The notes under the pieces were generated by a model. The model did no database searches and was not told the DNA's origin. It saw nothing but the letters and a program-made list of their open reading frames with translations. Both the position numbers and the translations under genes were made by a program. From the NCBI GenBank assembly GCA_041305945.1, contig JBGLND010000001.1:3216218-3280217 (forward strand): a DNA stretch of 64,000 nt, read 5' to 3'. Within the stretch, counting starts at the first letter, position 1. Every line of letters starts with the position of its first letter. Below are positions 6,901 through 31,700 of the stretch, in pieces. The stretch is from Promethearchaeota archaeon (lineage in GTDB: Archaea > Asgardarchaeota > Lokiarchaeia > Sigyniarchaeales > Sigyniarchaeaceae).

Positions 6901-7064
6901 TCATTTGATAGGGACCCGACAGGAATTCCCAAATTCGCAATACTCGTGCCAGAACTCGTCCCTTGAGATGCCAAGAAATAACAAGCATAAAAGCAGCAAG
7001 ATACCGTGATGGCTAACGCCAATCCGATCCGTATCTTGTCTTGATGCCAGAAACGATGTTGCAC
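3876..7064 (-). CDS. Large secreted/surface protein with N-terminal signal/anchor and repeated PPC-like (pre-peptidase C-terminal-like) beta-sandwich modules
   Basis: The 1062-aa ORF has a hydrophobic N-terminus (LALAITVSCCFYACYFLA). It contains at least 3 internal ~100-aa repeats with G(Y)DIKVWLGVPTGCNYELDVF, YIYLDVPVGCQYDLHAY and LYNIILDISSADDLNVEIFRL motifs, and it is Ser/Thr/Gly-rich. Its 3-prime end overlaps the truncated LivF fragment by ~80 nt. Confidence 0.65.
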   Translation of the reverse strand: MQHRFWHQDKIRIGLALAITVSCCFYACYFLASQGTSSGTSIANLGIPVGSLSNDIANPQLLNDGINDGESFTPAVDEFYYRSNSSIVASAYSAFTVYSSQIDVDMAFYTHVLPHTSTLRGTFIGSTANLKWMVFHHPSMIPIGYSLRPRVNTTGATGTGWVEWEQSTSLSLSGSTTISFYNQDDFIELVHCTMPSSVPGYIYLDVPVGCQYDLHAYKVASSACVRGDAPDYSSASGSTGVNEVLCIDDPGAEYVIVIARYGTTRTSTTMRFVPHRFLSDDVGVTDSISTGKIMNYSSDENINVDRLQLVYIGESNPPSQDFNLALYRKGVQVGVSAQPSSSFEFLVYNPSGTSTGTLNPVVSAPSGSGIFGIEWEQATPITLDTEISLSFSSTDAMELYQFTSPASGYDIKVWLGVPTGCNYELDVFRVTPNTCTWTDPHSSHSGTSVNECVDFTPAASTLYGILVRSVSGTATATLRVARVLSSGLPFDTVTNSGISSPYFWYRKMSVPTVESNYYFTFGEWSTSTPQIANLEMGVQSSTDKTILDTTQISNLTRWNVFRESTAQIRYPFIHSLSDSSMAYFGLFQGSSLPFGGSLAPAYTNKHAIYTVSLSSSKNYRFHLDVPWNGKFHMHVFYLAPGASTSSWQDYHVNGSSIGSDLTLQFKPLFSNTYAVVLVDCLLEPGNNAALEIEEIPETLTDGIPLAALMSNPDMPYYYETHGMSSSQYHLVSAWSPTVTFDMKVFSSNQYSVLLGDPLDTGSNVEWLVYKPSSGSSPIYPRVNTIGSTGTVYVESQSATTLALNIPVSSSLSSNKFAAVYEISTMEEGKLYNIILDISSADDLNVEIFRLAGGSCRLSGIDAGGSQLEFRQSISGGSSDEHIIDFSPEVSGATYVIVVYKASASSGAASFSIAVYRHNRVPYFDVTGDGYTQVNSNHFTYSVRYFDADNEAPSPNPVQVVIDGTPFNMTKQDDGDNVYTDGCLYIYTTWLDEGDHEHYFQASDGINMNRTPSSGAYTGPSVNHCPLLFDAGAVNPASGTNTTVCRYDRDGKSRSWWLSRGKT

Positions 7065-9330: not shown

Positions 9331-10335
9331 ATGTCTGATCTTGACACGGTAACAAGGATCGAACTCACGCCCGTGAACGTGCCGTTCAAGGCGATCGTTC
9401 GCCAAGCGATGCTCGCCGGGGCAGGTGGCTTGGGGATGGCGATACCAAGCGACGAGCCGTGGCTCGGCGGCGACTTCGTGATATGCCGGTTAGAAACCGG
9501 GAATGGCACGACGGGACTCGGCGAGGCATACATCTGGCTCCCCGAAACGGGCCAAACAACCGGCCAGATCATTGATGTCATCAAGGTCGCGCTCCACCGG
9601 TACGTCATCGGGGAAAATCCCGGGAACTTCAAGAAAATAAAGGCCCGTATGGACGTAAACGTCGCGAGAAATGAGGTTGCAAAGGGCTTGCTGGATATCG
9701 CCCTCTATGACCTCGTCGGGAAGCTAACGAACAAACCCGTTCACGAGATCATCGGCGGGAAGAGATGCGAGACGCTCCCCCTCGCGGCATTGGTTCCTCT
9801 CGGCAAGCTGGAAAGCATGGTGGAATACGCGCTGGTTTTCAAGGAGATGGGCTACAAGACGCTCAGGGTCAAGCTAGGCACCAGCATTCAAGATGATGCC
9901 ACGATCATGGCCGCCATCCGTGACGCTGTTGGACCCAAGATACGACTACGGGTGGATTACAACCAAGCGTACGCCGTCCCAGACGCGATCACGGCGATCC
10001 AGGCCATCGAGCCATTCGACATCGACGTCGCGGAGCAACCGGTTGCCATGGACGACTATCTGGGCATGAAAACCGTCCAAGAGCGTGTAAAGACCCCCTT
10101 GATGGCGCACGAGGGGTGCTTGGTCCTCGCTGCAACGAACGAGGGGCTCGGAACATGCTGGGTCGGCTACTTCGACGAGGAGAAGGTCAAGTCCGTATTG
10201 AACGTCCCCGCGAGATCCCGGATCGTTGCCATCACGCCCCTTGGTTACCCCGACGAGGAACCGAAGCCAACGTCACGCAAGGCCATCGACGAGATCGCGT
10301 TCCTGAACGAGTATGGTGCGAAGTATGTCTCTTGA
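9331..10335 (+). CDS. Chimeric ORF: enolase-superfamily (mandelate racemase/muconate lactonizing enzyme) N-terminal ~255 aa fused in frame to a nitroreductase C-terminal ~75 aa
   Basis: The MR/MLE part has ligand-region motifs (RVDYNQAY, DVAEQP, PLMAHEG). The sequence then switches to a nitroreductase tail, CLVLAATNEGLGTCWVGYFDEEKVKSVLNVPARSRIVAITPLGYPDEEP. This tail closely resembles the C-termini of the ferredoxin-nitroreductases at 15271 and 20718. Confidence 0.55.
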   Translation: MSDLDTVTRIELTPVNVPFKAIVRQAMLAGAGGLGMAIPSDEPWLGGDFVICRLETGNGTTGLGEAYIWLPETGQTTGQIIDVIKVALHRYVIGENPGNFKKIKARMDVNVARNEVAKGLLDIALYDLVGKLTNKPVHEIIGGKRCETLPLAALVPLGKLESMVEYALVFKEMGYKTLRVKLGTSIQDDATIMAAIRDAVGPKIRLRVDYNQAYAVPDAITAIQAIEPFDIDVAEQPVAMDDYLGMKTVQERVKTPLMAHEGCLVLAATNEGLGTCWVGYFDEEKVKSVLNVPARSRIVAITPLGYPDEEPKPTSRKAIDEIAFLNEYGAKYVS

Positions 10336-15270: not shown

Positions 15271-16077
15271 ATGAAGATACGCGGTATAAACGAGGACCGG
15301 TGCATCGCATGCAAGGCGTGCGTCGAACGCTGTCGCCGCTTCACGTTTGACGAGCACCAGCAGAAGGTCACCTTCTCGGATCCGGATTTTTCTTGCATAG
15401 ACTGCGGGCATTGCCTGGTCCTTTGCCCGGTGGACGCGATCGAGCACGTGGATCTCGGGGACGTCATGGTGGAGACCAGCAGCATCCCGGCCAGCCAGCG
15501 TGCAGTGCCGTACGAAAACTTGTTTAACATGATGCGCGTGCACCGGTCGATCCGCCGGTACAAGCCGGACCCCGTGCCACGGGACGTGCTCGCCAAGGTC
15601 ATCGACGCGATGCGGTACGCGCCGACGGGCATGAACATGCGGAGCGAGAAATTCGTCGTGATATCCAGCACGGATGTCATCCGGCAGCTGTCCGGGGCAG
15701 TGATCGAGGCGCTCATGGCGAACCCGGGGGCAAAAGCAGCCTACGAGAAGACGTTCGCGTGGCTGGCTTCCAAGTTCAAGGCACCGGCATACTTCGACGC
15801 GCCGCACGTCATCATCGGGTACTCGCAGATGGACATGGATATCGAGGATACCAATCTCGGGATCGTCATGACGTACGGGCGCCTGGCCGCCGAGGCACTG
15901 GGCTTGGGCACCTGCTGGAATGGCTGGACGCAAATGGCCATCAAGGGGAACAAGGACATGCAGAAACTATCGGGCGCCAAGGGCGTGCGGTTCGCGGCCA
16001 TGACCCTCGGGTATCCTGCAGTCCAGTACCCGCGCAGCGCGCCGCGCCCCCCGCCCAAGGTAAAGTGGGTCGATTGA
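15271..16077 (+). CDS. 2x[4Fe-4S] ferredoxin-domain/nitroreductase-family fusion protein
   Basis: CIACKACVERC and CIDCGHCLVLCP are ferredoxin motifs. They are followed by a nitroreductase fold (RRSIRRYK, GLGTCWNG). Confidence 0.8.
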   Translation: MKIRGINEDRCIACKACVERCRRFTFDEHQQKVTFSDPDFSCIDCGHCLVLCPVDAIEHVDLGDVMVETSSIPASQRAVPYENLFNMMRVHRSIRRYKPDPVPRDVLAKVIDAMRYAPTGMNMRSEKFVVISSTDVIRQLSGAVIEALMANPGAKAAYEKTFAWLASKFKAPAYFDAPHVIIGYSQMDMDIEDTNLGIVMTYGRLAAEALGLGTCWNGWTQMAIKGNKDMQKLSGAKGVRFAAMTLGYPAVQYPRSAPRPPPKVKWVD

Positions 16078-16206
16078 TGGTAAAGGCTCGCCTCTATAAC
16101 GTGCTATGCAGCACGCGGTTGCAATCGGCGCCAGCCTTGCCATCCATTGAATCACGGTCTAATTCGTGCTTCGTCCATCAATACCCATCCCCAGATAGGT
16201 CATGAA

Positions 16207-19200
16207 ATGCGGTTCGAACAAGTTATATTCTTGAATCGTTTCCTTGAAAATATCAAACACGGTTTGAAAATCCTTCACGCGTTCAACGAGTCGTATCTCG
16301 TCAAGAAGAAGGATGAGAAGGCCATCGCGTCCATCGCGCGGCATCTCTCCACCTTCAAGGTATTCCCGCTCGAAGGCAGCGGCAAGAAGGAGCCGCTCGC
16401 CAGCTTGGACGACCCCCGTCTCTTTCCTCGGAAGCTCGCGTTGCCCTCGTTCCTCGCTTCGGGATTGAAAGGAACGAACGACATGCGGTACCTCGACCAG
16501 GACATCGATGCATTGATCGAACGGATCAACATAGAATTCCCCCACAAGACAAAACTCGAGAACATCAAGCTGGACGTCTTGCTCAAGATGCCCAAGCTAT
16601 GGACCCCGACGTTGAAAGAAAAGGATGACCATCTAGCATTCATCAACTACATCACGGTCATCGCGAGGGTGCGTTATTACCGGGAAAATGACCCCGTGCA
16701 ATGGAATCGATTGCTCGGTCAATTGCAGCTCAAGGTGGAGGGTTCCAACGATTTCAAGCCGTTGAATCTGCTGGTGCCTGTTTTTATTCGGAACAACTTC
16801 AAGGCGTGGTGGAACCGGCTCACGGGCTCGTTTGCACAGCAGGAAGATTTCACGTTTGGCCACCACGACGAGGCCTTTTACGGCAAGGTTACCTCGACCC
16901 AAATCGATGGGATGATGGAAGGCAACGAATCGGCGTGCCAAGTGTTCGATAACAATTATTTCATGACCTTGATGATCAGTTACTTGAAATCAAAGGAATC
17001 CACGTGGCAAGGCGAGGATGTTATCAAGCATTTTGCTAAAAACTTGTATAACGTGCTTCAAGAAAATGAGCGTGGTAAAAAACCCGACCGAACCGTTCAG
17101 CGCGATCATGTAAGCACGTTGCTTGACCTGCTCGTTTCGAGAACACGTGACCACAATCCTGCGCTGTTCCAGAAATACTACTTGAACGCAAGAACAAATT
17201 TCTTCCGATATATCTTGGATACCAATGAATACATCGACCAAGATAACGATTTTATCATTTCCATCCGGCATCTCATGAAAAATGCAGTTTTATCCGAGCC
17301 ATTTAATGACGAGTTGATCGACGCGTTCATATCCAGCAAGTTCAAGCAAGTGAATGATCTCTTCACGATCGAACGTGTGGCAGAGAAATTCAAGAACGTG
17401 CAAATTAACAAGAGCACGCTGGTTGAAATGAGCGCGTTCTTGGAAGAATTTAACGCGTACCTGACGAGCTTGGGACTCCAAGACGGTCTCGCGTTGTTGA
17501 AAGGGCACGCGCCTGGCGGCGGGAAACCAGCAGCGGGCCAGCTTTCGGGCTTCGAGGCCTTGAAGCGGGACATGCAAGTGGTCCTCAAGGTTTCCGACGA
17601 CGATGCAAGGAACTCCCCGTTCTCCTTCCAGCAAGTCTTTTCAAAGAAAGGACAAAAGGACCCGAGGCTGTCGGGGATCGAGGAAATTCACGAGTTCGTG
17701 CCAGGTTTCATTTACTGGGAGACCCTTCTTTCAAAATTCGGCCTCCAAGAGAAACAAGTTGAACCATTCAAGGCATTCTTCGAGATCACGCCGTTGGCCG
17801 TGGACGACCTCTTGCATTACCTCCGCCAAACGAGCGGGAACGCTGCGCGGAAAAACCAGGAACAGCTGTTCGTCCTGGCCAAGTTCTTGATCGAGCGTTT
17901 CTTCGAGGCTTGGTCATCATCATCGCTCGATGTTGCCATGTTTCCGGTCTTGAAATTGAGCGAGAGTGGCATGGTCCAGAAGCAATTCTTGTCGTGGAAT
18001 GGATTGATCGATAACAACGTGTTTTGCACGTGCAATCAAGAGGTCATCGAGGAGCTCGGTTCGAAATTGCAGAAGAAGGGAAAACCCGTGTATCTCCTGT
18101 TCGACAAGCAGCACACCGACGAGTTCGAGAAGTGGTACGGGCTGGTCAACACGATCCTGGAAACGATGAAAGGGGCGAAAATATTTTACTTGGAAACCAT
18201 CCAGAGCAAGATCGCGAACATCAACGATGCTATCACGCAATCATCGCGTGACCAACTCGTTACCTTGGAACGCAAGAATCCTTTCTTCAACGAAACGATT
18301 TTCATCCGGTACTTGTTGCCGATCCTGCAAAAATGCAGTTTCCCTCACACCTTCAAGGATATAAACATCCTTGACGTGGATGCTGCCTTCTTGAACAATT
18401 CATTCGTGTTTGATTACCTGTCCGAGACCGATGCGGACATGACCGTCGAAAAATTTGACGGGGTTGTCATTGACATCAAGAAAGAGAAAATCACCACGTT
18501 TTTCGAGCCGCAAGTCCACCCGCACAAGCAAGCCGTCATCATCTACGTCTCGAAAACATTCAAGAAAAGCGACCAGAAGAACGAGTATTACAAGTTCTTG
18601 TTCCGGCGGTTGTTTCCGAAGCAAAAAATGGAAAAAGGCGCGTATTCACAATTCCTCGAGTTTTTTAACTGGATGGACGATTTCGACAGGACGTTCTTCG
18701 AGGACACGGCTGATCCCGGTGCCATCGAGGCTGGGATACTGGACTACGTGTACCAGCGCAACACTTTACAGCTGAAGGCCAGCAAGTCATACGAGATCGG
18801 CAAGGAATTGCGAGCGTTCTGCGACGCGTGCCAAGAAACGTGGCTGGAACTGCGCCCATCGTGGAGCGCATCAACGGGTGCAAGAGAGCTGCCCGCGGGA
18901 ACCGTTGACGCGTGGACGCGTTGGTTCGACCTGATCGCGAGCCACCTTGCCCTCGACGAGGTGGGTAAAACGAAGAAAGTCGAGCTCCGGCTCGACGGGG
19001 ATGGCAAGCACGTGTCCGTCGAGATACGGTACTCGCTCGGTTCCAAGGATGCACCTTTCCCGAAAACTGCAACGGGGAAACAGGATTACATCAAGGCCAT
19101 GATCACCGCCATCACGCAACATTTTCTTGACCCCGGCAATGGCATGCGCGGCTCGATCGAAAGCGTGTTCCCCGGGGCCGGCCTACTCGACGTGAAAGGC

Positions 19201-19404
19201 ATTGCCAAGGTCTTCAAGGTACTCGGGAGCCGGCCGGTTCGTGAACCGCCGGTAACGGGTCCCGTGCCCGCGCGACCCTCGTCTCCCGACCTTGAAATGC
19301 CCGCGGTTGCCTCGTCACGCCCGCCAGGCCCCGCTTTCCCCTCGCCGATTACAGGTCAAAATAACAGAAATAATCCATCGAAGCAAAGGATACAAGTGGC
19401 TTGA
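16207..19404 (+). CDS. Large (1066 aa) uncharacterised cytoplasmic protein, predicted all-alpha, with a Pro-rich disordered C-terminal tail
   Basis: The ORF is long and uninterrupted, with no TM segment and no recognisable catalytic or nucleotide-binding motif. It is rich in K/E/F/N/Y and its codons are visibly more A/T-rich than neighbouring genes. The tail is PVREPPVTGPVPARPSSPDLEMPAVASSRPPGPAFPSP. The track ORF begins at 16147, and the first ATG in frame is at 16207. Confidence 0.65.
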   Translation: MRFEQVIFLNRFLENIKHGLKILHAFNESYLVKKKDEKAIASIARHLSTFKVFPLEGSGKKEPLASLDDPRLFPRKLALPSFLASGLKGTNDMRYLDQDIDALIERINIEFPHKTKLENIKLDVLLKMPKLWTPTLKEKDDHLAFINYITVIARVRYYRENDPVQWNRLLGQLQLKVEGSNDFKPLNLLVPVFIRNNFKAWWNRLTGSFAQQEDFTFGHHDEAFYGKVTSTQIDGMMEGNESACQVFDNNYFMTLMISYLKSKESTWQGEDVIKHFAKNLYNVLQENERGKKPDRTVQRDHVSTLLDLLVSRTRDHNPALFQKYYLNARTNFFRYILDTNEYIDQDNDFIISIRHLMKNAVLSEPFNDELIDAFISSKFKQVNDLFTIERVAEKFKNVQINKSTLVEMSAFLEEFNAYLTSLGLQDGLALLKGHAPGGGKPAAGQLSGFEALKRDMQVVLKVSDDDARNSPFSFQQVFSKKGQKDPRLSGIEEIHEFVPGFIYWETLLSKFGLQEKQVEPFKAFFEITPLAVDDLLHYLRQTSGNAARKNQEQLFVLAKFLIERFFEAWSSSSLDVAMFPVLKLSESGMVQKQFLSWNGLIDNNVFCTCNQEVIEELGSKLQKKGKPVYLLFDKQHTDEFEKWYGLVNTILETMKGAKIFYLETIQSKIANINDAITQSSRDQLVTLERKNPFFNETIFIRYLLPILQKCSFPHTFKDINILDVDAAFLNNSFVFDYLSETDADMTVEKFDGVVIDIKKEKITTFFEPQVHPHKQAVIIYVSKTFKKSDQKNEYYKFLFRRLFPKQKMEKGAYSQFLEFFNWMDDFDRTFFEDTADPGAIEAGILDYVYQRNTLQLKASKSYEIGKELRAFCDACQETWLELRPSWSASTGARELPAGTVDAWTRWFDLIASHLALDEVGKTKKVELRLDGDGKHVSVEIRYSLGSKDAPFPKTATGKQDYIKAMITAITQHFLDPGNGMRGSIESVFPGAGLLDVKGIAKVFKVLGSRPVREPPVTGPVPARPSSPDLEMPAVASSRPPGPAFPSPITGQNNRNNPSKQRIQVA

Positions 19405-19471
19405 ATAGGCCCGTTCAGCCTTCCTGGTGGATAGAATCGCAGTTCTCGTTGAAAGAAAAAATAAGGTGCAT

Positions 19472-20605
19472 TCAGATATCATCGAGATCGAGGGGCTTGT
19501 CACGGCTCAGGTTATGGAGGGTCGGGTATGCAATCGTGTCCTTGACCGGGAAATACACGGCACGTTCTTGCTGGACGGAGTTCAATATCGCCCTCAACAC
19601 TTCAACGCTCTTGCGCCCTTCTTCCCCGGGCACCATGGGATCGACGTCGTTGGTGATCGAGTCCAGGAAGTTCTCGAGCAGGTTGTGGCGCTTGGGCACC
19701 ATGAAGGGCACTTCCCAGTCTTCCTCGCTCTTGTACCGCGTGTCGGTGGTGATGGACATGCCGTACGCCCCGTCCGCGGCCACGTAACCTTTCTCCCCTT
19801 GCACGACAATGGTATCCTTGGGGGCCTTCTTGTTGGACGTCGCGAACATCATCGTCCCGATCGCCCCGCTCTGCGTCGTGAACGAGGCCATGACCGTGTC
19901 CTCCACCTCGATGAGGGCATGTTCCTTGGCGATGGTCGCCGCGTGCGCGGACAGGCTCTTGAACGGGCCAACGATCCACTGGAAAATGTCGATGTCGTGC
20001 ACGGCTTGGTTGATCAAGATGCCACCGCCTTCGGTCTCCCAGCGCCCCTTCCACGGGCCAGAGGCAACGCCCGTCGCGGGGTCCACCGGGGTCGACCCGA
20101 GGTAGTACATGTCACCACGGTAATGCCTCGCCGACATCGAGAAATCCGTGATGCGGCCGAGGTCTCCAAGCTCGCCCTTCGCCCCGCGAGCGGCATCGTA
20201 GAGGTACTTGAAATGCGGCTTGAACCGGAACTGGAACCCGATGCCCAGCTTGATAGCGTTCTTCCTCGCGGCGATGATCATCTGGTCGGCCTGCTGGAGG
20301 TTGATAGCCATCGGTTTTTCCGATAGCACGTTCACGTCGTTTTCAGCGCATATGATGGTGTACGGCGCGTGCAAGTAGTGCGGCGTCGCGATGACGACGA
20401 AATCAAGCGATTCGCTTTTCAGCATATCATGCACGCTGCGGTACACGTTAGGCTTTCCAGCCCGTTCCGATATCGCCCTCGCGCGTTTTTCATCGATGTC
20501 GCACAGCGCGACCAGCTCCACTTCCTTGTGCGCGTGCAGGTCTCTAGCCCAACCGCTACCCCTGCCACCCGTGCCGATGACGGCACCCTTGTAAGTTTTT
20601 CCCAT
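19472..20605 (-). CDS. Gfo/Idh/MocA family oxidoreductase
   Basis: It has MGKTYKGAVIGTGGRGSGWARD (Rossmann), the EKP motif and a C-terminal alpha/beta domain. The track ORF extends to 20683. Confidence 0.8.
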   Translation of the reverse strand: MGKTYKGAVIGTGGRGSGWARDLHAHKEVELVALCDIDEKRARAISERAGKPNVYRSVHDMLKSESLDFVVIATPHYLHAPYTIICAENDVNVLSEKPMAINLQQADQMIIAARKNAIKLGIGFQFRFKPHFKYLYDAARGAKGELGDLGRITDFSMSARHYRGDMYYLGSTPVDPATGVASGPWKGRWETEGGGILINQAVHDIDIFQWIVGPFKSLSAHAATIAKEHALIEVEDTVMASFTTQSGAIGTMMFATSNKKAPKDTIVVQGEKGYVAADGAYGMSITTDTRYKSEEDWEVPFMVPKRHNLLENFLDSITNDVDPMVPGEEGRKSVEVLRAILNSVQQERAVYFPVKDTIAYPTLHNLSRDKPLDLDDI

Positions 20606-20717
20606 AGTAGAATCAACATGGCTTGCTATTCGTGATGAACTATCGCGCGGCCGGGATAAAAAAAAATGCACACCCACATCCAACGGGTTTTTTACCGCGC
20701 GGAGTAACCCGTATCAC

Positions 20718-21542
20718 ATGAATATTATTGTCGATCGCACGGCATGCACGAAATGCGGGCTATGCATGAAGATGTGCAAGTGGCTCGCGCCGGACGGGGA
20801 CGGATTTCCGTATAATACAAGCGAACGGGGGTGCATCGATTGTGGCCACTGCGTGGCTTTGTGCCCGACTGCTGCCATCACGAACACGAGAATGGATGCA
20901 TCGGGATTTGTTGACGTGATCGAACCTAACATCACGATCGACGCTTTCACGAACTTGACACGCAACAGGCGCAGCATCCGGCGGTACAAGGCAGATGCCT
21001 TGAAAAAGGAACACCTCGACAAGCTCTTGAATTGCGTCCGGTACATCCCGACAGGCTCGAATAAGCAAGGCTTGGAATACCACGTCATCACGGATCCCCG
21101 CACGTTGCAAGACATCAAGACCTTCATGAGCAGGAAATTCAAGACAACGGCTAAACTCGCGAACATGTTCAGTGCATTCGTCGCGAAAGAGGACCGGATT
21201 CGCTTGCAACAGCAAGTGGACATCTGGAATTCCGGCGAGGACGTGTTCTTGCGTGACGCGCCGTGCCTTCTCGTCATCCATTCCCCGGAAAATTATTTTG
21301 GCATCACGAGCTGGGACGCGGGCATCGCCAGCCACAACATTGACCTCGCGGCGCAAACGCTGGGCGTCGCGACAATGCTGAACGGCTTCTACGTGACGGT
21401 ATGCCGGGTCTTCAAGAAACTCAAGGCGATTTCAGGATTGCCGAAAAAAACCAACGTGCTCGCGGCCATGCTGCTGGGATACCCCGATATCAAGTACAAG
21501 CGCGCGGTGTACCGGAAGCCGCTTAATATCACGTATTTATAG
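20718..21542 (+). CDS. 2x[4Fe-4S] ferredoxin-domain/nitroreductase-family fusion protein (paralog of 15271..16077)
   Basis: It has CTKCGLCMKMC and CIDCGHCVALCP, then RRSIRRYK and a nitroreductase core. Confidence 0.8.
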   Translation: MNIIVDRTACTKCGLCMKMCKWLAPDGDGFPYNTSERGCIDCGHCVALCPTAAITNTRMDASGFVDVIEPNITIDAFTNLTRNRRSIRRYKADALKKEHLDKLLNCVRYIPTGSNKQGLEYHVITDPRTLQDIKTFMSRKFKTTAKLANMFSAFVAKEDRIRLQQQVDIWNSGEDVFLRDAPCLLVIHSPENYFGITSWDAGIASHNIDLAAQTLGVATMLNGFYVTVCRVFKKLKAISGLPKKTNVLAAMLLGYPDIKYKRAVYRKPLNITYL

Positions 21543-21555
21543 CGTCTCCGGGCCT

Positions 21556-22380
21556 TCACATGAACCGGAACATGCGGTACTCGAGAAACGTGGCGAGAAT
21601 GACGACAAGAATGGCAATGACAAGCGTGCGACTCCGCGTGCCGGCAGCAATCAAGCTTCCAATGAAATAGACGGTTGCCATCAAGGCCGGGATGCCTATC
21701 AAGACAAGATAATTAATGGACACTGGAATGCCAGGGTACATGATCACCGGGACGAAAACAAGCACGAGACCCACGCTGGCGAGCCGCCATGCAAGGATGA
21801 TGCCGGAATTCTTGCAGAGGCTGGAAAACGGGTGGCTGGTGGCCCCGCGTGATTCCGGGAACGCCGGCACGAGGCTCCTGAACACGAGGTCGGCGGCGAA
21901 GTTCATGAAGAAGACCACCGTGTAGGACAGGAACGTCGCGTTGAAAACGGTCATGCCCGGGTGCTTGATTACACTGGCACAAGCCATGTAGCCGATGGAG
22001 AAGAATGCCGTTGATGCAGCAATCGATACCATCCCGGCAGCCCAGTTGCGTGCACCGGTTCCTTCCAACCACGTGTTGATGGCCGGGAGGCAGCCCTGCC
22101 GGCGGGCGTGGATGGCATGCATCGCCGCGAGGGCAGCAAGCACGGCAGCCGGGAAGAGCAGCAAGTATCCCCACATCACCGACGTGATATTCCAAAGGAC
22201 CAATAACCCTATAACGAACGCTATCGCAAGCGTGCTTCCCAGCACCACGAGCATGTATCGCCGGTCAGGCGTGGGTGGAGGGGTAGACACGATCGGGGAA
22301 GAAGCCCCGCGAAGCAACGTGAAGAGCAGCAAGAACAGCACGACGGCCGCCGCCACGAGCCACCATCCCGCGCCGTCCAT
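21556..22380 (-). CDS. Hypothetical polytopic membrane protein
   Basis: It has about 7 hydrophobic helices. The start is uncertain because the ORF can extend to 22554. Confidence 0.45.
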   Translation of the reverse strand: MDGAGWWLVAAAVVLFLLLFTLLRGASSPIVSTPPPTPDRRYMLVVLGSTLAIAFVIGLLVLWNITSVMWGYLLLFPAAVLAALAAMHAIHARRQGCLPAINTWLEGTGARNWAAGMVSIAASTAFFSIGYMACASVIKHPGMTVFNATFLSYTVVFFMNFAADLVFRSLVPAFPESRGATSHPFSSLCKNSGIILAWRLASVGLVLVFVPVIMYPGIPVSINYLVLIGIPALMATVYFIGSLIAAGTRSRTLVIAILVVILATFLEYRMFRFM

Positions 22381-22499
22381 TGAACCGGATGGAGCGTCGT
22401 GGATGGTGATTGCGGCGGCTCGTGCCCTTGAAACCATGGAACGCATCATCCGGGTCGCGGAAGCCCAAATACCACCCCGGAACCCTGACGACTTCGATT

Positions 22500-22933
22500 C
22501 CAGCGAGGAGAGCATCGCGGAGATCATCGGCCACCTCACGCACTCGGCGAGCAAGGAGTTCTACGACTTCGACACCAAGAAGGAAGAGATCACGAACGTG
22601 AAAATCCTCGTGCTCACGCGGAGCGGGCTATCCGCGCGCATGGTGTCGAAATACAGGCCGTTACTCCCGATCATCGCGGTGACGTCCCAAGAAACAACCG
22701 CGCGGGAAATGCGCTTGATCTGGGGCGTTGAACCGCTCATGATCCAGGGCATCGATGATGAGTGGAACACGTTCGTGAAGATACAAAAAAGCGTCCGCGT
22801 CGCGGTCGATCGCAACATGCTAGAACCCACGGACAAAATCATCACGGTGGGCAACATGAATTACCTCCCCGCGAGGACGAACATGATCTCCATCTTCAAG
22901 GTAAGCGATATCATCGCTTCCGAAGGTAAATGA
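22500..22933 (+). pseudogene. Pyruvate kinase C-terminal alpha/beta domain fragment
   Basis: VKILVLTRSGLSARMVSKYRPLLPIIAVTSQETTAREMRLIWGVEPL matches the PK C-terminal domain (compare ILVLTESGRSARLVSKYRP..PIIAVT). The upstream part of the track ORF 21995..22933 is antisense to the membrane protein. No TIM-barrel catalytic domain is present. Confidence 0.55.
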
Positions 22934-22939
22934 ATTGGA

Positions 22940-23980
22940 GTGGCAACCACCGTGTTTTCCCGAGAGGATGCAGAGATATTACCGTGGGTCGAGAAGTACC
23001 GGCCCCGATCCGTTTTTTCCGAGGATTTCATCAACCAAGAGCTGATCATCAATAACCTCCAGTTCTACGCGTCGAATCCCGCGAGCAACATGCCCCACCT
23101 CATTTTTTCTGGTCCACCGGGGACAGGAAAAACCACCGCTGCTCTCGCCCTCGCCCGCGACATCTTGAAGGAGAATTTCAGGCTGGACACGGTGCTGGAA
23201 TTGAACGCGAGCGACGAGCGCGGGATCGACGTCATCCGGGGGAAGGTGAAGGATTTTTCCACGACCATGGAAATATCCGCGGTGCAGTTCAAGATCGTCA
23301 TACTGGACGAGGCGGATAGCATCACGAGGGATGCACAAGCTGCGCTTCGCAGGACGATGGAAACCACGAGCAACAAAGTTCGCTTCATCCTCATGTGCAA
23401 TTATGCGGACGAGATCATAGACCCGATCAAGTCCCGTTGCGCGATCATGCGGTTCAAGCCGTTGCCCCCGTCCCACGTCAAGCATTACATCCACCGCATC
23501 ATGGAACGTGAGAAGATTACGATATCCGAGCCGTGCGTGGACGCCGTTATCATGGCAGGGATGGGCGACATGCGGAAGACCATCAACGTGCTCCAGATGG
23601 CCTTGTCCGTGGTGGAATCGAGCGATGACCTCATGCCCGGCATCGTCTTCGATCTCGAAGGCTTCGCCCCGCCCGAGAAGATATCGGAGTTTTACAACTT
23701 GGTAACTGCTAAAGATGTCAAGGCAAGGGAAAACGCGGGCACGCTAGGAAAGGTGATGCGCTTGCTTGAAAGCTTCAAAGGCGTCTCGAGCAAGAACGTG
23801 ATCCTTCAAATGTACACCAAGTTCATGGAACATAAAGCGAGCATGAACCAAGCCTTGCTTGCACGCGTGATCGATATTCTTGCCACGATCGACCACCGGA
23901 TCACGAATAAAGCTACCGATTCGATTCAATACTCAACGCTGGGAGCGGAGGTCTGGCAAGCATTCAAGGACCTGGCGTGA
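22940..23980 (+). CDS. rfcS: Replication factor C small subunit
   Basis: It has LPWVEKYRP, Walker A GPPGTGKTT, Walker B ILDEADS, the SRC motif (KSRCAIMRF) and sensor 2. Confidence 0.9.
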   Translation: MATTVFSREDAEILPWVEKYRPRSVFSEDFINQELIINNLQFYASNPASNMPHLIFSGPPGTGKTTAALALARDILKENFRLDTVLELNASDERGIDVIRGKVKDFSTTMEISAVQFKIVILDEADSITRDAQAALRRTMETTSNKVRFILMCNYADEIIDPIKSRCAIMRFKPLPPSHVKHYIHRIMEREKITISEPCVDAVIMAGMGDMRKTINVLQMALSVVESSDDLMPGIVFDLEGFAPPEKISEFYNLVTAKDVKARENAGTLGKVMRLLESFKGVSSKNVILQMYTKFMEHKASMNQALLARVIDILATIDHRITNKATDSIQYSTLGAEVWQAFKDLA

Positions 23981-23999
23981 CCAAGGAGCGACATGCAAG

Positions 24000-25073
24000 A
24001 TGATGACCAGCGAACGTAAAACCGGGCCATTGAACGAACTTTTCTCGGTCAAGTACACGCCGCACCACCTTTCAGAGATCACCGGCCACGAGGACATCGT
24101 CCAACGGCTGACGAGCATGGTTTCGACCAAGAAGGTGAGCCACGTCCTCATCGCGGGGCCGGATGGTTGCGGGAAATTGACGCTTGCAAAGTGCATGGCC
24201 CGCGACTTGTTCGAGGCGGACTACGCGGCGAGCGTGAACATCGTGCACGTTGCCAACCCCTTGACGCAAGAGGAACGCAAGCTAGCGGACAGCGAATCGA
24301 GAATCAGCTCCACCCGGATCGGGAGCATCGCGGGCCAGACGCTCATCATGCCGAAATTCATCCAAGCACGGATCAAGCCCGTTGTGGAGTTACGCGCGAT
24401 GAACGAGCTGGGCTTCAAGCTGATCATCGTGACGGATTTCGAGATGCTGAACCAAGACCAGCAAGGGTTCAGGAGGTTGATGGAAACCTATGGCACGAAT
24501 TGCAGGTTCGTCTTGACCACGACGCAGATATCGAGCGTCATCGACCCGATAGCATCACGGTGCCAAGTGTTGCTCGTGAGCCCCGTCACGCGGGGGCAAT
24601 TCTTCACGGAGGTCTCCAAGGTCGGCAAGCTCGAGGGGACCAAGGTCACCTACACGTTCGCCAACTCGCTGTATTACGTCACGAAGGGGAACATCGGGAA
24701 GGCACTCAACATCATACAAGTCCTCGCACTGAGGGGACTGGAACTCACCGAGGATAACTTGTTCGAGATCATCCGGGACCTTGAAAGCAAGGAACTGTTG
24801 AGGTTTCTCGAGTCGTGCATCAACGCGAATTTCATGCAAGCTCGCGAGCTCTATTACACGATCAAGAACAAGAACGCGTTCAACTTTTCTCAATTCCTCG
24901 AATCATTCAGGAAGGCAGTGCTCCACGCGCCGGTCTCGCAAGTCATGAAGGCTTGCGTGCTGGACTCCATCGGCGAGGTCGACGCGCGGGCAACTACGCA
25001 GGCCAGCGATGACGTGCACGTGGCAAGCTTGATCTTTAAAATATCGACCAGCATCGCGGAAAACTCGACGTGA
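24000..25073 (+). CDS. RFC small-subunit paralog with degenerate ATPase motifs (RfcS2-like)
   Basis: It has the RFC box LFSVKYTPHHLSEITGHED. Walker A is degenerate (GPDGCGKLT), Walker B is DFEM instead of DEAD, and an SRC-like ASRCQVL is present. The track ORF starts at 23880 and the first ATG pair is at 24000. Confidence 0.7.
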   Translation: MMTSERKTGPLNELFSVKYTPHHLSEITGHEDIVQRLTSMVSTKKVSHVLIAGPDGCGKLTLAKCMARDLFEADYAASVNIVHVANPLTQEERKLADSESRISSTRIGSIAGQTLIMPKFIQARIKPVVELRAMNELGFKLIIVTDFEMLNQDQQGFRRLMETYGTNCRFVLTTTQISSVIDPIASRCQVLLVSPVTRGQFFTEVSKVGKLEGTKVTYTFANSLYYVTKGNIGKALNIIQVLALRGLELTEDNLFEIIRDLESKELLRFLESCINANFMQARELYYTIKNKNAFNFSQFLESFRKAVLHAPVSQVMKACVLDSIGEVDARATTQASDDVHVASLIFKISTSIAENST

Positions 25074-25507
25074 AGACCATGGACGCTGAAAAAAAGGGAC
25101 AGAATAAGGGAAAACGGGAGCTACCGTGGGTGGAAAAATACCGGCCAAAACACATGAACGAGATGGTCGGTGTTGACTCGAAGCGAAAGGAGCTTACCGA
25201 GTTCCTGGACGCGTTCCCGAAGACCCGCGCGGCCGTCTTGATCGGGCCGCCCGGCGTTGGGAAGACGACCATGGTTTACGCTGTTGCCGCGGACAAGAAT
25301 CGCGATATCATAGAGATGAACGCGTCCGATGCCAGGAACTCCGACCAGATCAAGAAGAAAGTCCAAGAGTCCACGAGGACACGGTCGATCACGGACTTCA
25401 TGGGCATAACGAAGGGAAAGGTCATCCTCATCGACGAGGTCGATGGCATCAGCGGGAACGAGGACAAGGGCGGGATACAAACCCTCGTGGACATCATCGT
25501 TCCGTAA
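25070..25507 (+). pseudogene. rfcL: Replication factor C large subunit, N-terminal 145 aa only
   Basis: LPWVEKYRPKHMNEMVG, Walker A GPPGVGKTT, Walker B ILIDEVDGISGNED and GGIQTL are followed immediately by a stop. The expected C-terminal ~300 aa are absent. Confidence 0.7.
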
Positions 25508-27233
25508 AGCGATCGGGCGCGATGTGCTTGGTAATAAACCCGCCTCTGGAACCGAAATTCTTGTCGAGCTTGGCATGGGGTGCATCAACCCGAAGAAACC
25601 CAACATCCTCATGATCGGGCACAATGCTGCCCCCGGCGTGGAGATGGTCGATTATGTCCGTGAGCACGGGCTGGACGACGCGGTCGATATCTCCGCGATC
25701 TGCTGCACCGCCATCGATCTCACGAGGTACTGGGACCGCGTGAAGGTCGTCGGTTCGATGTCCAGGCAGATGCGCTTCATCCGGTCGGGTATTCCTGACG
25801 TCGTGATGGTTGATGAGCAATGCGTGCGATGCGACAACATCTGGGAAGCCAAGAAAATAAAGGCTGCGTTCATCGCGACGAACGAGAAGAACATGATGGG
25901 ATTGCCAGACCGTACGCACGATGACGAGAACAAGATCATTGACGACCTGGTGAATTTGAAGGTGGATGGTGTCTTGATTCTCGATCCCGCAAAGGCCGGA
26001 CGAATTGCCGTCAAGGTAGCGATGGCGATCCATCCAAAACGTGCGGATGTCAACATCATTCCGAAGGCCGATGATATTATCGAAATGGCAAGCAGGTGCA
26101 CGTTCTGCGAGAATTGCTCCCGTGCATGCCCTAACGACCTCCCTCTAGCCGAAGCCGTGCAAGCAGCAGCAAAAGGAGACTTCTCTATGCTTAGAGCCTT
26201 GGAACCCGAATGTCTCAACTGTGGCCGTTGTGAAAAAGAATGTGCAAAGAACGTCAGTCCGGTCTTGCTTATACAATCGGCAACAATGGATAGGCTCGTG
26301 GAGGAGAAATACAAGATGCGCGCGGGCCGGGGTCCTGTCACGGACGTTGAGATCCGGAACATCGGTGCCCCCGTCGTGCTCGGGGAAATACCCGGCGTCA
26401 TAGCAATCGTCGGGTGCGCGAACTACCCATCAGATATCAACGAGGTCGCTTACGTCGCCGATGAATTTTGCAGGCGCGGGTACATCGTGCTCACGACCGG
26501 GTGCGAGGCCATGGATATCGCGCTTTATAGGGATCCCGAAACCGGCCAGACGCTATATGAGAAGTACAGCGGGGTCGTCGAGCGCGGCTGCTTGGTCAAC
26601 ATCGGTTCTTGCGTCTCGAACGGCCACATCACCGGGTGCGCAGCGAAGGTGGCTAACATCTTCGCGCGGAGACCGCTGCGCGGGAACTTCGAGGAGATCG
26701 CGGACTATATCTTGCACCGAGTTGGTGCGGTCGGCCTCTCGTGGGGTGCCATGAGCCAGAAGGCAGCATCCATTGCCACGGGTGTCAACGTCATCGGCAT
26801 CCCCGTCGTGGTCGGCCCGCACGGTGCCGAGTACCGGCGGCAATATCTCGGCAGGACCGACGACCCGTCCAGGTGGAAGGTCTGGAACATGCGCGACGGC
26901 ACGGAGCACGTTGCAGATCCATGCCCCGAGCACTTGATCTTCGCTGCGGAATCCAAGGAAGAGGCCATCGTAGCCATGGCGAAGCTTTGCCTGCGCCCGG
27001 CAGACTCGACGAAGGGTCGCAGCATCAAGATTTCGAACTGGGTCGATCTCCACAAAAAATACATCGGTGGGCTTCCCCATGACCTCACGACCTATATCCG
27101 GGTCGAGGCAGATATCCCAATCACCATCAAGGACGAGGTCATGGGAATGCTCAAAGCAGAAAACTGGCAACCCAAGGAAATCATCGACCCGACCATGGTC
27201 GAGCGACTCGGCATTGCCCGGGCGAAGAAATAA
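25443..27233 (+). pseudogene. cdhA: Ni-CODH catalytic subunit, archaeal CdhA type (CODH/ACS alpha), lacking the N-terminal ~250-300 aa
   Basis: It has C-cluster region motifs (ILMIGHNAAPGVEMVDYV, ICCTAID) and an inserted 2x[4Fe-4S] ferredoxin domain typical of archaeal CdhA (FCENCSRACP, CLNCGRCEKEC). It lacks the N-terminal B/D-cluster cysteine region. It starts out of frame inside the 3-prime end of the rfcL fragment. Confidence 0.6.
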
Positions 27234-27522: not shown

Positions 27523-28650
27523 GTGAACAAAATGGAAAAGGATCACGTCACGATCATTAACTTCCTGATAGACTCGGCTCGCAAGCATGCTGAAATCGAT
27601 TGCATGCGGTACTTGAAGCGGGGCGAGTACGTCGGCATCACCTGGAGCGAGGTCATGGAGATCACGCGCCTGCTTGCCTTGGGTTTCCAAGCATTGGGAT
27701 TGCCCCACCAAGGCAGGATCGCGTTGATGGCCAAAACCCGGTACGAGTGGCGCTTGGTCGATTACGGCATCATGTTCGCCGGGTGCACCACCGTCACGAT
27801 CTACCCATCCCTCACCGCGGCCCAGGTCGAGTACATCATCAACGACTCGGATTGCACCGTCTTGGTGGTGGACACGCCGTCCAACTTGAAAAAAGCAATC
27901 AAGGCAAAACCAAACTGCCCGAAATTACAGCACGTCATTTCTATCGAGCCCGTGCCAGATGATCTCAAGAGCAAAGAAAACATCATGACCCTTGACGACC
28001 TCATCGGGAAGGGAGAGGGCATCAAGCCGGTGTCGGGCCTTGCACCCGGCGACATCGCGGGGAAACTCGACCGGAAAGAGAAACAACTCAAGAAAGCGTA
28101 CCACAAGGACAGAATCGATGCGCTCCTTGCCGAGTGCCGGGCGCTCGACGCAGAGCTCGTGAAAGCCACGAAGAACCCGTTCATAGAGCGATACATGCAG
28201 GTCAAGGCGGATGACGTTGCGACGATCGTCTACACCTCGGGTACCACGGGCGTGCCAAAGGGTGCCGTGCTCACGCATTACAACATGGCCATCAACGCCG
28301 TGCAAACCGCGCAGGTCATCCCGATAGAGCAACATGACCTCGTCCTGTCGTTCTTGCCCCTCTCGCACGTGCTCGAGCGCCAGGTCGGCCAGTTCCTCGC
28401 GACGTACATCGGATTCACTGTCGCGTTTGCACGGGATACCGATTCGTTGATAGAGAACCTCGACCAGATCAAGCCGACGTTCATCACGAGCGTGCCCCGT
28501 GTCTACGAGAAACTGTACGACCGCATCATTGCCGATGTCGTGGACGAGGAGAAGAAGAAAAAGATATTTGGGGGCTTTGGAACCGGTGCGGTCTTGACGT
28601 CATCCCTTTTCATCGAGTCACGTTGGGTCCTTTCCAATTGTTCCTTGTAG
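27523..28650 (+). pseudogene. Long-chain acyl-CoA synthetase (AMP-binding), N-terminal ~350 aa only
   Basis: It has the AMP-binding motif YTSGTTGVPKGAVLTH. The sequence decays after PRVYEKLYDRII...KKKKIF into a junk tail antisense to the next gene. The C-terminal half is missing. Confidence 0.65.
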
Positions 28651-31650: not shown

Positions 31651-31700
31651 TTCATCACGGATTCACTTCGTCGATGCACGCAAAGCCTTGAACCCGGTTT

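What the first reader, a model, noticed from the sequence alone, without database searches (positions are those of the whole stretch)
16207..19404. 1066-aa domain-less helical orphan protein with A/T-shifted codon usage and a Pro-rich tail
This is the longest intact ORF among the metabolic genes. I can see no Walker, nuclease, protease, methyltransferase or TM signature anywhere in the 1066 aa. The composition (K/E/F/N/Y-rich, visibly more A/T-rich codons than the flanking ferredoxin-nitroreductase and Gfo/Idh/MocA genes) suggests foreign origin. The C-terminal ~60 aa are a Pro/Ser-rich disordered tail. Large alpha-solenoid or helical-repeat proteins of this size in archaea include uncharacterised eukaryotic-signature-like scaffolds and defence effectors.
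Basis: seen in the sequence. Interest (0 to 1): 0.6.

Follow-up and report, generated by a model that had tools for sequence, protein, structure and literature searches.

The report
Fragment of giant sacsin-like defence gene
The "1066-aa orphan" is not a stand-alone protein: it is a 1,024-codon piece from the back half of a giant sacsin/Tiamat-like archaeal defence gene, and its start (and probably its stop) come from blunt sequence joins in a patchwork assembly.

Summary
The ORF exists (16207-19404, 1065 aa) and has no Pfam, NCBIfam, PADLOC or PDB hit. It is not foreign by codon usage (rank 15 of 35 window genes, z = -0.2); its low GC comes from amino-acid composition. An exhaustive HMMER search found remote relatives. 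Residues ~30-960 align colinearly with residues ~1350-2200 of 2250-2565-aa Asgard-archaeal giants. Those giants have a sacsin-type GHKL ATPase head that matches Tiamat TmtA models. They end in a disordered linker plus a nuclease-like effector (NOV_C or a Cys-rich domain), follow an SNF2 helicase gene, and one sits beside McrBC and BREX genes. The target lacks head, effector and partners. Three near-identical sister contigs (98.6-99.6%) match the window only up to 16277, which is 24 codons into the ORF. Those 24 codons are the antisense of a neighbouring gene that is intact in the sisters. Other blunt joins at about 10120, 13199, 22424, 25500, 28575 and 31650 cut housekeeping genes and create chimeric ORFs. 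At 19349/19350, the predicted next join, the sequence switches to AT-rich intergenic DNA, and the last 17 codons have GC3 of 0.29 against 0.70 (P = 7e-4). Verdict: an assembly-made chimeric ORF around a genuine, very divergent gene fragment. Interest is low to moderate.

The parts
16207..19404 (+). The ORF as reported (1065 codons plus stop). It is a chimeric reading frame made of three pieces.
   Evidence: junction evidence
16207..16277 (+). First 24 codons (MRFEQVIFLNRFLENIKHGLKILH). They are not part of the sacsin-like gene. They are the antisense of the 3' remnant of a neighbouring small gene and supply the ATG.
   Evidence: Sister contigs L010, L011 and L012 are 98.6-99.6% identical to the window up to 16277 and unrelated afterwards. 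GC3 is 0.46 against 0.70 in the body, P = 0.012.
16159..16277 (-). Remnant (last 39 codons plus stop) of a 91-aa gene that is intact in three sister assemblies and cut here by the junction.
   Evidence: p91 residues 53-91 match window 16278-16159 at 97.5%
16278..19349 (+). Body of the ORF: 1,024 codons of genuine coding sequence. It is homologous to residues ~1350-2200 (non-ATPase C-terminal region plus linker) of Asgard sacsin/TmtA/NOV-like giant proteins.
   Evidence: phmmer E = 1.7e-18 to P0005 and 5.8e-12 to P0002 at Z = 1.84e9. BLASTP is colinear over ~850 aa. Alignment A2. 46% identity at family-invariant columns. GC3 is 0.70.
17692..18846 (+). Most conserved module (residues ~496-880), including the invariant LLFxK...W motif (L630, L631, F632, K634, W643) and FF.I (F524, F525, I527).
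19222..19349 (+). Pro/Ser-rich disordered segment (residues 1006-1048). It is positionally equivalent to the linker that precedes the effector domain in relatives, and it is cut at its end.
   Evidence: P0007 tail and the L001/L005 partner genes
19350..19404 (+). Last 17 codons plus stop (TGQNNRNNPSKQRIQVA*). This is read-through into the AT-rich 3' intergenic flank of the convergent Gfo/Idh/MocA gene. A junction probably lies at 19349/19350.
   Evidence: Abrupt switch from GC-rich to AT-rich sequence. GC3 is 0.29, P = 7e-4, and only 2 of 1008 body windows are as low. The position equals 16278 + 3072, as the block lattice predicts.

Best explanation
The ORF is a chimeric reading frame. Its core, about 16278-19349 (1,024 codons), is a fragment of a much larger gene for a sacsin/NO VEIN/Tiamat(TmtA)-like giant protein.

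Full-length relatives are 2250-2565 aa and come from Asgard archaea. Their layout is:
- an N-terminal sacsin-type GHKL ATPase;
- about 2000 aa of unannotated alpha/beta scaffold;
- a disordered linker;
- a nuclease-like effector. This is either NOV_C (a PD-(D/E)xK domain), or a Cys-rich 'CQICR..CR.CE...CHNH' domain that is fused in some members and encoded by an overlapping downstream gene in others.

The giant gene directly follows an SNF2 helicase gene, and in one locus it lies beside McrBC and BREX genes.

The window holds only the last ~850 aa of the scaffold plus part of the linker. The start codon and first 24 codons are borrowed from the antisense strand of a truncated neighbouring gene. 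The last 17 codons are read-through into intergenic DNA.

Both ends lie at blunt joins belonging to a series of such joins spaced about 3.07 kb apart (or double that) across the window. These joins cut housekeeping genes. The most economical reading is that the 3.7-Mb source 'contig' is a patchwork of short contigs or fixed-size chunks joined without spacers. On that reading the organism really encodes a full-length giant whose other parts lie elsewhere in the record.

Inferred mechanism for the real, full-length protein (not shown here): an ATP-driven GHKL clamp or sensor works with the SNF2 translocase on invading DNA and deploys the tethered nuclease. The region seen here would be the scaffold that couples the ATPase head to the effector.
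For: Homology:
- Exhaustive phmmer found three remote relatives.
- Against full-length members, target 40-417 matches P0005 1383-1774 and target 496-880 matches P0005 1824-2199, with whole-sequence E = 1.7e-18 at Z = 1.84e9. The target is also colinear with P0002, P0007, P0008 and P0009.
- The target is identical at 55 of the 120 columns that are invariant across three subgroups, and in the same residue class at 86.

Family identity:
- P0002 matches NF047352, the sacsin N-terminal ATP-binding domain (64 bits, cutoff 50).
- NCBI names P0005 'sacsin N-terminal ATP-binding-like domain-containing protein [Promethearchaeota archaeon]'.
- P0004 and P0008 carry NOV_C, and the precomputed Pfam table lists PF13020 for P0009.
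- The P0002 gene as read on L018 matches PADLOC TmtA models, E = 1.5e-18.
- P0007 carries a P/S/T-rich linker followed by the Cys-rich domain.

Context of relatives:
- The order SNF2, giant, 351-aa partner is seen in L001, L002 and L018; L017 has SNF2 followed by the giant.
- The SNF2 partner matches DrmD at 3e-93 and HmaA at 8e-42. Neighbours are BrxL, PglZ and McrBC.

Truncation and mosaic:
- Three sister contigs are identical to the window only up to 16277, and the p91 gene is intact in them.
- The ATPase head, SNF2 helicase and effector are absent from the whole window.
- Further blunt joins at 13199, 22424 and 25500 cut a 212-aa gene, pyruvate kinase and an AAA+ RFC-like gene, and leave CdhA 5'-truncated.
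- One block end coincides exactly with the end of sister contig L015.
- Domain-chimeric ORFs sit at the predicted lattice points 10124, 28575, 31650 and 59325.
- There is a composition break at 19349/19350, and the last 17 codons have non-coding-like GC3.

The fragment's codon usage is native.
Against: - I could not inspect the rest of the 3.7-Mb record, so the missing head and tail have not been found.
- The join at 19349/19350 is inferred from composition, GC3 and lattice position. No sister contig covers it.
- Some lattice points are clearly continuous: GH2 runs across 53175, a B12-radical-SAM gene across 62400, and an operon across 43950. Double-length cells therefore exist, and 16278-22423 could be one continuous piece.
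- The near-constant ~3,075-bp block size is unexplained.
- Sister contig ends near 22439 and 25499 show that these are branch points in real read data. That does not strictly exclude real structural variants.
- The homology is remote (18-23% identity) and the AF2 model is poor (pLDDT 49.5).
Confidence: 0.78

Rival explanations
1. The 1065-aa protein is real. A genuine genomic rearrangement or insertion in this strain left a stand-alone copy of the scaffold region without ATPase head or effector. This copy acquired a new start from flanking DNA and is expressed, for example as a regulator, decoy or adaptor of a full-length paralogue elsewhere.
For: The ORF is open for 1065 codons, has native codon usage and keeps family-conserved residues. 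An in-frame ATG exists. Sister contigs and a Logan contig end within 15 nt of two junctions, so these are branch points in real read data. The block 16278-22423 could be continuous, in which case the stop would be natural.
Against: The same kind of blunt join recurs about every 3.07 kb and truncates pyruvate kinase, an RFC-like AAA+ gene, CdhA, an enolase-superfamily enzyme and an acyl-CoA ligase. That is not credible for a living genome. The first 24 codons are the antisense of a gene that is intact in three sisters. The last 17 codons are non-coding-like. An open frame is expected anyway for a piece cut from inside a giant gene.
Confidence: 0.13
2. One reading: a horizontally acquired, lineage-specific orphan helical-repeat scaffold (HEAT/ARM/TPR-like or an eukaryotic-signature protein), unrelated to known families.
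For: No profile or PDB-sequence hit. Only a self-hit in the 5.8-billion-cluster search. GC is lower than in the immediate neighbours. The low-confidence model is about 51% helix.
Against: Codon usage is native. There is significant colinear homology to sacsin/TmtA-like giants. The model has a mixed alpha/beta prediction, and there is no repeat-family profile and no significant Foldseek match. No internal repeat was found (hhalign probability 1.6%).
Confidence: 0.04
3. A decayed pseudogene relic of an ancient defence cassette, with head and effector deleted, drifting neutrally.
For: The ATPase, effector, SNF2 helicase and partner are all absent from the window.
Against: There are no stops or frameshifts in 1,024 codons. 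Coding periodicity is strong (GC3 0.70 against GC2 0.335). Family-conserved positions are kept at 46% identity and 72% same class. The truncation points coincide with a window-wide lattice of joins, not with gene-specific decay.
Confidence: 0.05

Closest known systems
Asgard-archaeal 'sacsin N-terminal ATP-binding-like domain-containing' giants (P0002, P0005, P0007, P0008, P0009; 2242-2565 aa; Promethearchaeota and Helarchaeota MAGs)
   Same: Colinear homology over ~850-930 residues of the C-terminal scaffold. Shared invariant motifs (LLFxK...W, FF.I). A disordered linker follows the scaffold.
   Different: Identity is only 18-23%. The source genome has 54% GC against 24-30% for the relatives' contigs. 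In this ORF and window the ATPase head (first ~1350 aa), the effector domain, the SNF2 neighbour and the Cys-rich partner gene are all absent. The most likely reason is that the sequence is cut.
Tiamat defence system (TmtA; Millman et al. 2022, as cited in PMC12926258; common in defence hotspots, PMC12629846)
   Same: The target's full-length relatives match PADLOC TmtA models through the GHKL ATPase region, E = 1.5e-18, and sit in a defence island.
   Different: The target itself has no TmtA hit, because the matching region is not in the fragment. The TmtA profiles are 1370-1782 positions long, whereas the Asgard giants are ~2250-2565 aa and paired with an SNF2 helicase. The mechanism of Tiamat is unknown.
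NO VEIN / NOV_C (DUF3883) proteins and Hma (SNF2-NOV_C nickase; PMC11232893; SNF2-DUF3883 in R-M operons, PMC3710099)
   Same: Relatives P0004 and P0008 end in NOV_C, and PF13020 is listed for P0009. The cassette's SNF2 gene matches HmaA and DrmD.
   Different: In Hma the nuclease is fused to the helicase, whereas here it is fused to the GHKL giant. No NOV_C is detectable in the target.
Eukaryotic sacsin (SACS) repeat regions
   Same: The relatives share the sacsin-type Hsp90-like ATP-binding head (NF047352; PF25794 in more distant relatives).
   Different: No detectable similarity between the target fragment and any annotated sacsin region. There is no DnaJ or HEPN domain. The relation to sacsin's inter-ATPase regions was not tested.

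Membership tests
Asgard sacsin/TmtA/NOV-like giant proteins | Significant, colinear sequence homology to the family's C-terminal scaffold region | tested here: met
   phmmer E = 1.7e-18 (P0005), 5.8e-12 (P0002) and 1.4e-11 (P0003) at Z = 1.84e9. BLASTP is colinear over 813-898 columns with P0002, P0005, P0007 and P0009.
Asgard sacsin/TmtA/NOV-like giant proteins | N-terminal sacsin-type GHKL ATP-binding domain (NF047352 / HATPase_c_3 / PF25794) | tested here: not met
   No hit in the ORF. No match to the heads of P0002, P0005, P0007, P0008 or P0009 anywhere in the window. The ORF starts at a blunt junction, so the absence probably reflects truncation of the sequence, not of the gene.
Asgard sacsin/TmtA/NOV-like giant proteins | Disordered linker after the scaffold, followed by a nuclease-like effector (NOV_C or Cys-rich CHNH domain) in cis or as an overlapping downstream gene | tested here: not met
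   The linker is present (residues 1006-1048). No effector was found: Pfam gave nothing at E <= 10, BLASTP against NOV_C gave nothing, and tblastn of the partner gene and of the tails of P0007, P0008 and P0009 found nothing in the window.
Asgard sacsin/TmtA/NOV-like giant proteins | SNF2-family helicase gene immediately upstream | tested here: not met
   The upstream gene is a Fer4-nitroreductase. No SNF2 match in the window. The upstream context belongs to a different sequence block.
Tiamat (TmtA) defence system | Match to PADLOC TmtA profile | tested here: not met
   The target has 0 PADLOC families at E <= 10. Its full-length relative on L018 matches TmtA at E = 1.5e-18, but only through residues 136-452, a region absent from the fragment.
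Tiamat (TmtA) defence system | Protection against viruses when expressed | not testable with these tools
   Needs an experiment. Only defence-island context of relatives is available.
   No repeat profile. No internal duplication. The AF2 model is mixed alpha/beta but has low confidence (pLDDT 49.5). The best Foldseek PDB match has E = 0.047 and TM <= 0.13.
Horizontally acquired (compositionally foreign) gene | Synonymous codon usage or GC3 outside the host range | tested here: not met
   GC3 is 0.69 against 0.705 +/- 0.066. The codon-usage score ranks 15th of 35, z = -0.2.

The most novel reading that the evidence does not exclude
The junctions are real in the organism, and the 1065-aa protein is a genuine stand-alone derivative of a Tiamat/sacsin-like giant with no ATPase head and no effector. 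It would be expressed from a start codon captured from a disrupted neighbour and would act as an adaptor, decoy or regulator of a defence system. Separately, and more likely, the fragment marks an unrecognised GC-rich archaeal branch of a three-gene SNF2 / GHKL-giant / nuclease defence cassette so far seen only in AT-rich Asgard MAGs.
Probability: 0.12. Interest if true: 0.5.

Novelty: new member of a known kind. Interest (0 to 1): 0.25.

Why it matters
For this finding, the point is mainly cautionary. A 'domain-less giant orphan' turned out to be a gene fragment framed by assembly joins. The same window contains several other chimeric ORFs that could be mistaken for novel fusions.

On the biological side, the fragment shows that a 54%-GC archaeon carries a very divergent member (18-23% identity) of a rare family of sacsin/TmtA-like giants. 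Otherwise only a handful of clusters of this family are known among 1.8 billion representatives, all from AT-rich Asgard MAGs.

In those MAGs the family forms an undescribed cassette: an SNF2 helicase, a GHKL giant, and an interchangeable nuclease module (NOV_C in cis, or a Cys-rich domain in cis or in trans), in one case next to BREX and McrBC. That cassette is a reasonable candidate for a new Tiamat-related defence system in archaea and is worth following in the relatives rather than in this window.

Tried and rejected
1. Paralogy with the other ~1062-aa ORF (3876-7064, minus strand): none.
2. Cryptic NOV_C / PD-(D/E)xK domain in residues 882-1005 ('LDGDGKHVSVEIR'): no Pfam hit at E <= 10 and no BLASTP similarity. 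Dropped.
3. In-frame fusion of the target's last ~110 residues with the N-terminal segment of the relatives' downstream partner: z = 0.8 and -1.4 for residues 950-1010, and 1.7 and -1.1 with the Pro-rich tail included, against shuffles. Dropped.
4. Internal duplication of the two halves (a recurring 'FP...G...L..L' motif): hhalign probability 1.6%. Dropped.
5. Single-sequence AF2: pLDDT 34.6, useless. With the 7-sequence alignment: pLDDT 49.5. Foldseek against PDB found nothing, so no further fold searches were run.
6. Profile search with A1 in the word-indexed database returned only the query, probably because low-complexity words swamped the candidates.
7. Species-representative genomes: no relative of the target, and no close relative of the organism when queried with RFC.
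8. JGI metagenome contigs and viral contigs: no close relative.
9. Divergent-homologue explanation for the 22424 junction: the apparent pyruvate-kinase similarity left of the junction is a spurious BLAST extension.
10. Junction signatures: no linker, microhomology or repeat.
11. Organism and study identification from sister accessions in the literature: nothing found. Exact look-ups carry no names.
12. Rfam scan of the window: nothing.
Full report
**1. The observation**

An ORF runs from ATG 16207 to the stop at 19402-19404, giving 1065 aa; a TTG 20 codons upstream is also possible. It is the longest ORF in the window.

It has no significant match in Pfam, NCBIfam, PADLOC or PDB sequences, whether scanned whole or in four segments. 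It has no TM-like segment. Residues 1006-1048 are Pro/Ser-rich.

Its GC is 0.511, lower than its immediate neighbours (0.585-0.617). The deficit lies in GC2 (0.335) and GC1. GC3 is 0.69, against 0.705 +/- 0.066 for 44 window ORFs. A leave-one-out synonymous-codon score ranks the ORF 15th of 35 genes, z = -0.2. So the ORF and its lack of domains are real. The claimed A/T-shifted codon usage, and the foreign origin inferred from it, are not supported.

**2. Relatives**

The word-indexed search of 5.8 billion clusters returned only the query. The exhaustive phmmer search of 1.84 billion representatives found three remote relatives, all matching residues ~495-880.

- P0002 (2242 aa) carries a sacsin-type N-terminal ATP-binding domain (NF047352, 64 bits against a cutoff of 50).
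- P0004 ends in NOV_C/DUF3883.
- A search with P0002 recovered full-length family members P0005, P0007, P0008 and P0009 (2252-2565 aa). NCBI names two hits (P0005 and the partial P0006) as sacsin N-terminal ATP-binding-like proteins of Promethearchaeota and Helarchaeota MAGs.
- The target aligns colinearly with all of them. With P0005, target 40-417 matches 1383-1774 and target 496-880 matches 1824-2199, with whole-sequence E = 1.7e-18 at library size. With P0007, target 35-886 matches 1342-2139.
- At the 120 columns invariant across three subgroups, the target is identical at 55 and in the same residue class at 86. Background identity is 18-22%.

The body of the ORF is therefore a genuine, constrained member of this family. 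It corresponds only to the family's residues ~1350-2200.

**3. What the family looks like**

- Head: a GHKL ATPase. Through this region the P0002 gene, as read on L018, matches PADLOC TmtA (Tiamat) models at E = 1.5e-18.
- Tail: after the shared scaffold comes a disordered linker and then an effector. P0004 and P0008 have an acidic/Lys-rich linker plus NOV_C, and PF13020 is also listed for P0009. P0007 has a Pro/Ser/Thr-rich linker plus a Cys-rich 'CQICR.YCR.CE...LILCHNH' domain.
- In P0002 and P0003 that same Cys-rich domain, preceded by its own Pro-rich linker, is a separate gene that overlaps the giant's stop. The two partner genes (351 and 381 aa) are 51% identical.
- Upstream there is always an SNF2 helicase of 1035-1078 aa. 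It matches DrmD at 3e-93 and HmaA at 8e-42.
- On the 48-kb contig L018 the cassette lies beside McrBC, BrxL (777 bits) and PglZ.
- NOV_C is an experimentally shown nickase in the SNF2-linked Hma system (PMC11232893). Tiamat is a validated defence system of unknown mechanism (PMC12926258, PMC12629846).

The family is best described as a Tiamat-related, SNF2-associated GHKL giant with swappable nuclease modules.

**4. Why the target has no head, tail or partners**

The window contains no ATPase head, SNF2 helicase, NOV_C or Cys-rich domain.

The upstream Fer4-nitroreductase has copies at >= 90% identity on three short contigs from sister assemblies.

- These contigs are 98.6-99.6% identical to the window from 13199 (or from their own ends) up to exactly 16277. 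After that they match nothing in the 64 kb.
- In the sisters, a 91-aa minus-strand gene spans this point intact. In the window only its last 39 codons remain, at 16159-16277.
- The ORF's first 24 codons are the antisense of that remnant. Family homology starts just after the junction.

The same pattern recurs elsewhere.

- Sister contigs around the two RFC small-subunit genes match only 22424-25499.
- The join at 22424 removes the first ~320 residues of pyruvate kinase; the apparent similarity to its left is a spurious extension.
- The join at 25499/25500 cuts a 426-aa AAA+ RFC-like gene after residue 140. It is followed by a CdhA that starts at profile position ~200.
- The joins are blunt, with no linker or microhomology.
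- Sister contig L015 ends exactly at 25499. L015 and a Logan contig start 15 nt inside 22424. These are therefore natural assembly break points.

**5. A lattice of joins**

The proven joins are at 13199, 16278, 22424 and 25500. They are spaced 3079, 6146 (= 2 x 3073) and 3076 bp apart.

Extrapolating at ~3075 bp predicts further joins, and ORFs crossing several of them are domain chimeras.

- **9331-10335:** the ORF switches at residue 263/264 (nt ~10120; predicted 10124) from a half MR_MLE_C domain to the last 42 positions of a nitroreductase domain.
- **27523-28650:** an AMP-binding domain is cut at 271 of 384 positions, just before predicted 28575.
- **31135-32103:** a beta-helix domain is cut at ~31660 (predicted 31650).
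- **58403-59851:** a ferritin fragment is fused to a complete pyrophosphatase across predicted 59325.

Some predicted points are clearly continuous: GH2 across 53175, a B12-radical-SAM gene across 62400, and an operon across 43950. So double-length cells exist.

I cannot explain the near-constant block size. It could come from fixed-size chunking or length-sorted contigs joined without spacers. This remains unexplained.

**6. The 3' end**

The lattice predicts a join at 16278 + 3072 = 19350.

- At 19349/19350 the DNA switches from GC-rich Pro codons to AT-rich sequence. That sequence runs into the oligo-T stretch downstream of the convergent Gfo/Idh/MocA gene.
- The last 17 codons have GC3 of 0.29 against 0.70 in the body. 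The binomial P is 7e-4, and only 2 of 1008 body windows are as low.

The stop codon is therefore probably read-through. The Pro-rich 'tail' is a cut inter-domain linker, so the real protein probably continues into an effector. No sister contig covers this join, so I rate it at about 70%.

**7. Structure**

Single-sequence AF2 failed (pLDDT 34.6). With the 7-sequence family alignment the mean pLDDT is 49.5; only residues ~300-400, 690-740 and 790-860 reach ~80. The model is mixed alpha/beta (51% helix, 8% strand). Foldseek against PDB found nothing (best E = 0.047). No internal repeat was found.

**8. Verdict**

The '1066-aa orphan' is a chimeric ORF built around a 1,024-codon fragment of a giant sacsin/TmtA/NOV-like defence-type gene. 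The 5' boundary is shown to be a blunt join that is absent from sister genomes. The 3' boundary is probably another such join.

The most likely cause is a patchwork assembly (about 0.78). A real rearrangement producing a stand-alone protein remains possible (about 0.13).

The underlying gene is a new, very divergent member of a known kind. The more interesting biology, an SNF2 / GHKL-giant / nuclease cassette in Asgard archaea, lies in the relatives and not in this window.

The mechanism proposed for the full-length protein is inference from domain content and neighbourhood. It is an ATP-driven GHKL clamp or sensor that cooperates with an SNF2 translocase and a tethered nuclease. Nothing here tests it.

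Noticed in passing
window ~10120, 13198/13199, 16277/16278, ~19349/19350, 22423/22424, 25499/25500, ~28575, ~31650, ~59325: The window is a mosaic of blocks of ~3,072-3,079 bp, or double that length, joined bluntly. Sister assemblies match at 98.6-100% only inside blocks, and genes are cut at the block ends. The near-constant block size is unexplained (fixed-size chunking or length-sorted contigs concatenated?).
   Followed up: partly
window 9331-10335 (+): Chimeric ORF. An enolase-superfamily protein (MR_MLE_N, then MR_MLE_C cut at profile position 105 of 219) runs in frame into the last 42 positions of a nitroreductase domain at residue 263/264. It could be mistaken for a novel fusion.
   Followed up: yes
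window 58403-59851 (-): Chimeric ORF that joins a ferritin/rubrerythrin-like fragment (residues 52-155) to a complete inorganic pyrophosphatase (residues 318-469) across a predicted block boundary.
   Followed up: partly
window 21995-22933 (+), 25079-25499 (+), 25443-27233 (+): Truncated housekeeping genes at block ends. Pyruvate kinase is present only from residue ~322. An RFC-like AAA+ gene is present only up to residue 140. CdhA matches TIGR00314 only from profile position 219.
   Followed up: yes
window 3876-7064 (-): A second giant ORF without domain hits (1062 aa). It has a signal-peptide-like N-terminus, Ser/Thr/Gly-rich repeated beta-type modules, and the most deviant codon usage in the window (GC3 0.57). 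It spans almost exactly one lattice cell (3974-7049), so its C-terminus is probably cut too. It is not related to the target.
   Followed up: partly
L018 1185-20845 (also L001, L002, L017): In AT-rich Asgard MAG contigs there is a tight cassette of an SNF2 helicase (DrmD/HmaA-like), a 2242-aa TmtA/sacsin-like giant and an overlapping 351-aa Pro-linker plus Cys-rich 'CHNH' protein. In L018 it lies next to McrBC, BrxL (with a Schlafen/AlbA_2 C-terminus) and PglZ. It looks like an undescribed Tiamat-related multi-gene defence system.
   Followed up: partly
L005 3403-4721: Downstream of the cassette in another relative lies a small nucleotidyltransferase-like gene (weak NTP_transf_2 hit) followed by a 307-aa protein with a weak DUF4145 hit. 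This may be a toxin-antitoxin-like pair typical of defence islands.
   Followed up: no
window 15271-16077 (+) and 20718-21542 (+); 19472-20605 (-): Two paralogous Fer4-nitroreductase genes lie either side of the target block(s). The Gfo/Idh/MocA gene has no copy at >= 90% identity in the sister assemblies, unlike the Fer4-nitroreductase and RFC genes.
   Followed up: partly
L010 4377-4910, L012 2583-3200: Where the window has the target, the sister assemblies carry a 91-aa gene and a >= 206-aa membrane protein with a C-terminal Cys-rich (zinc-ribbon-like) segment. Neither has a Pfam hit, and neither is present anywhere in the window.
   Followed up: partly
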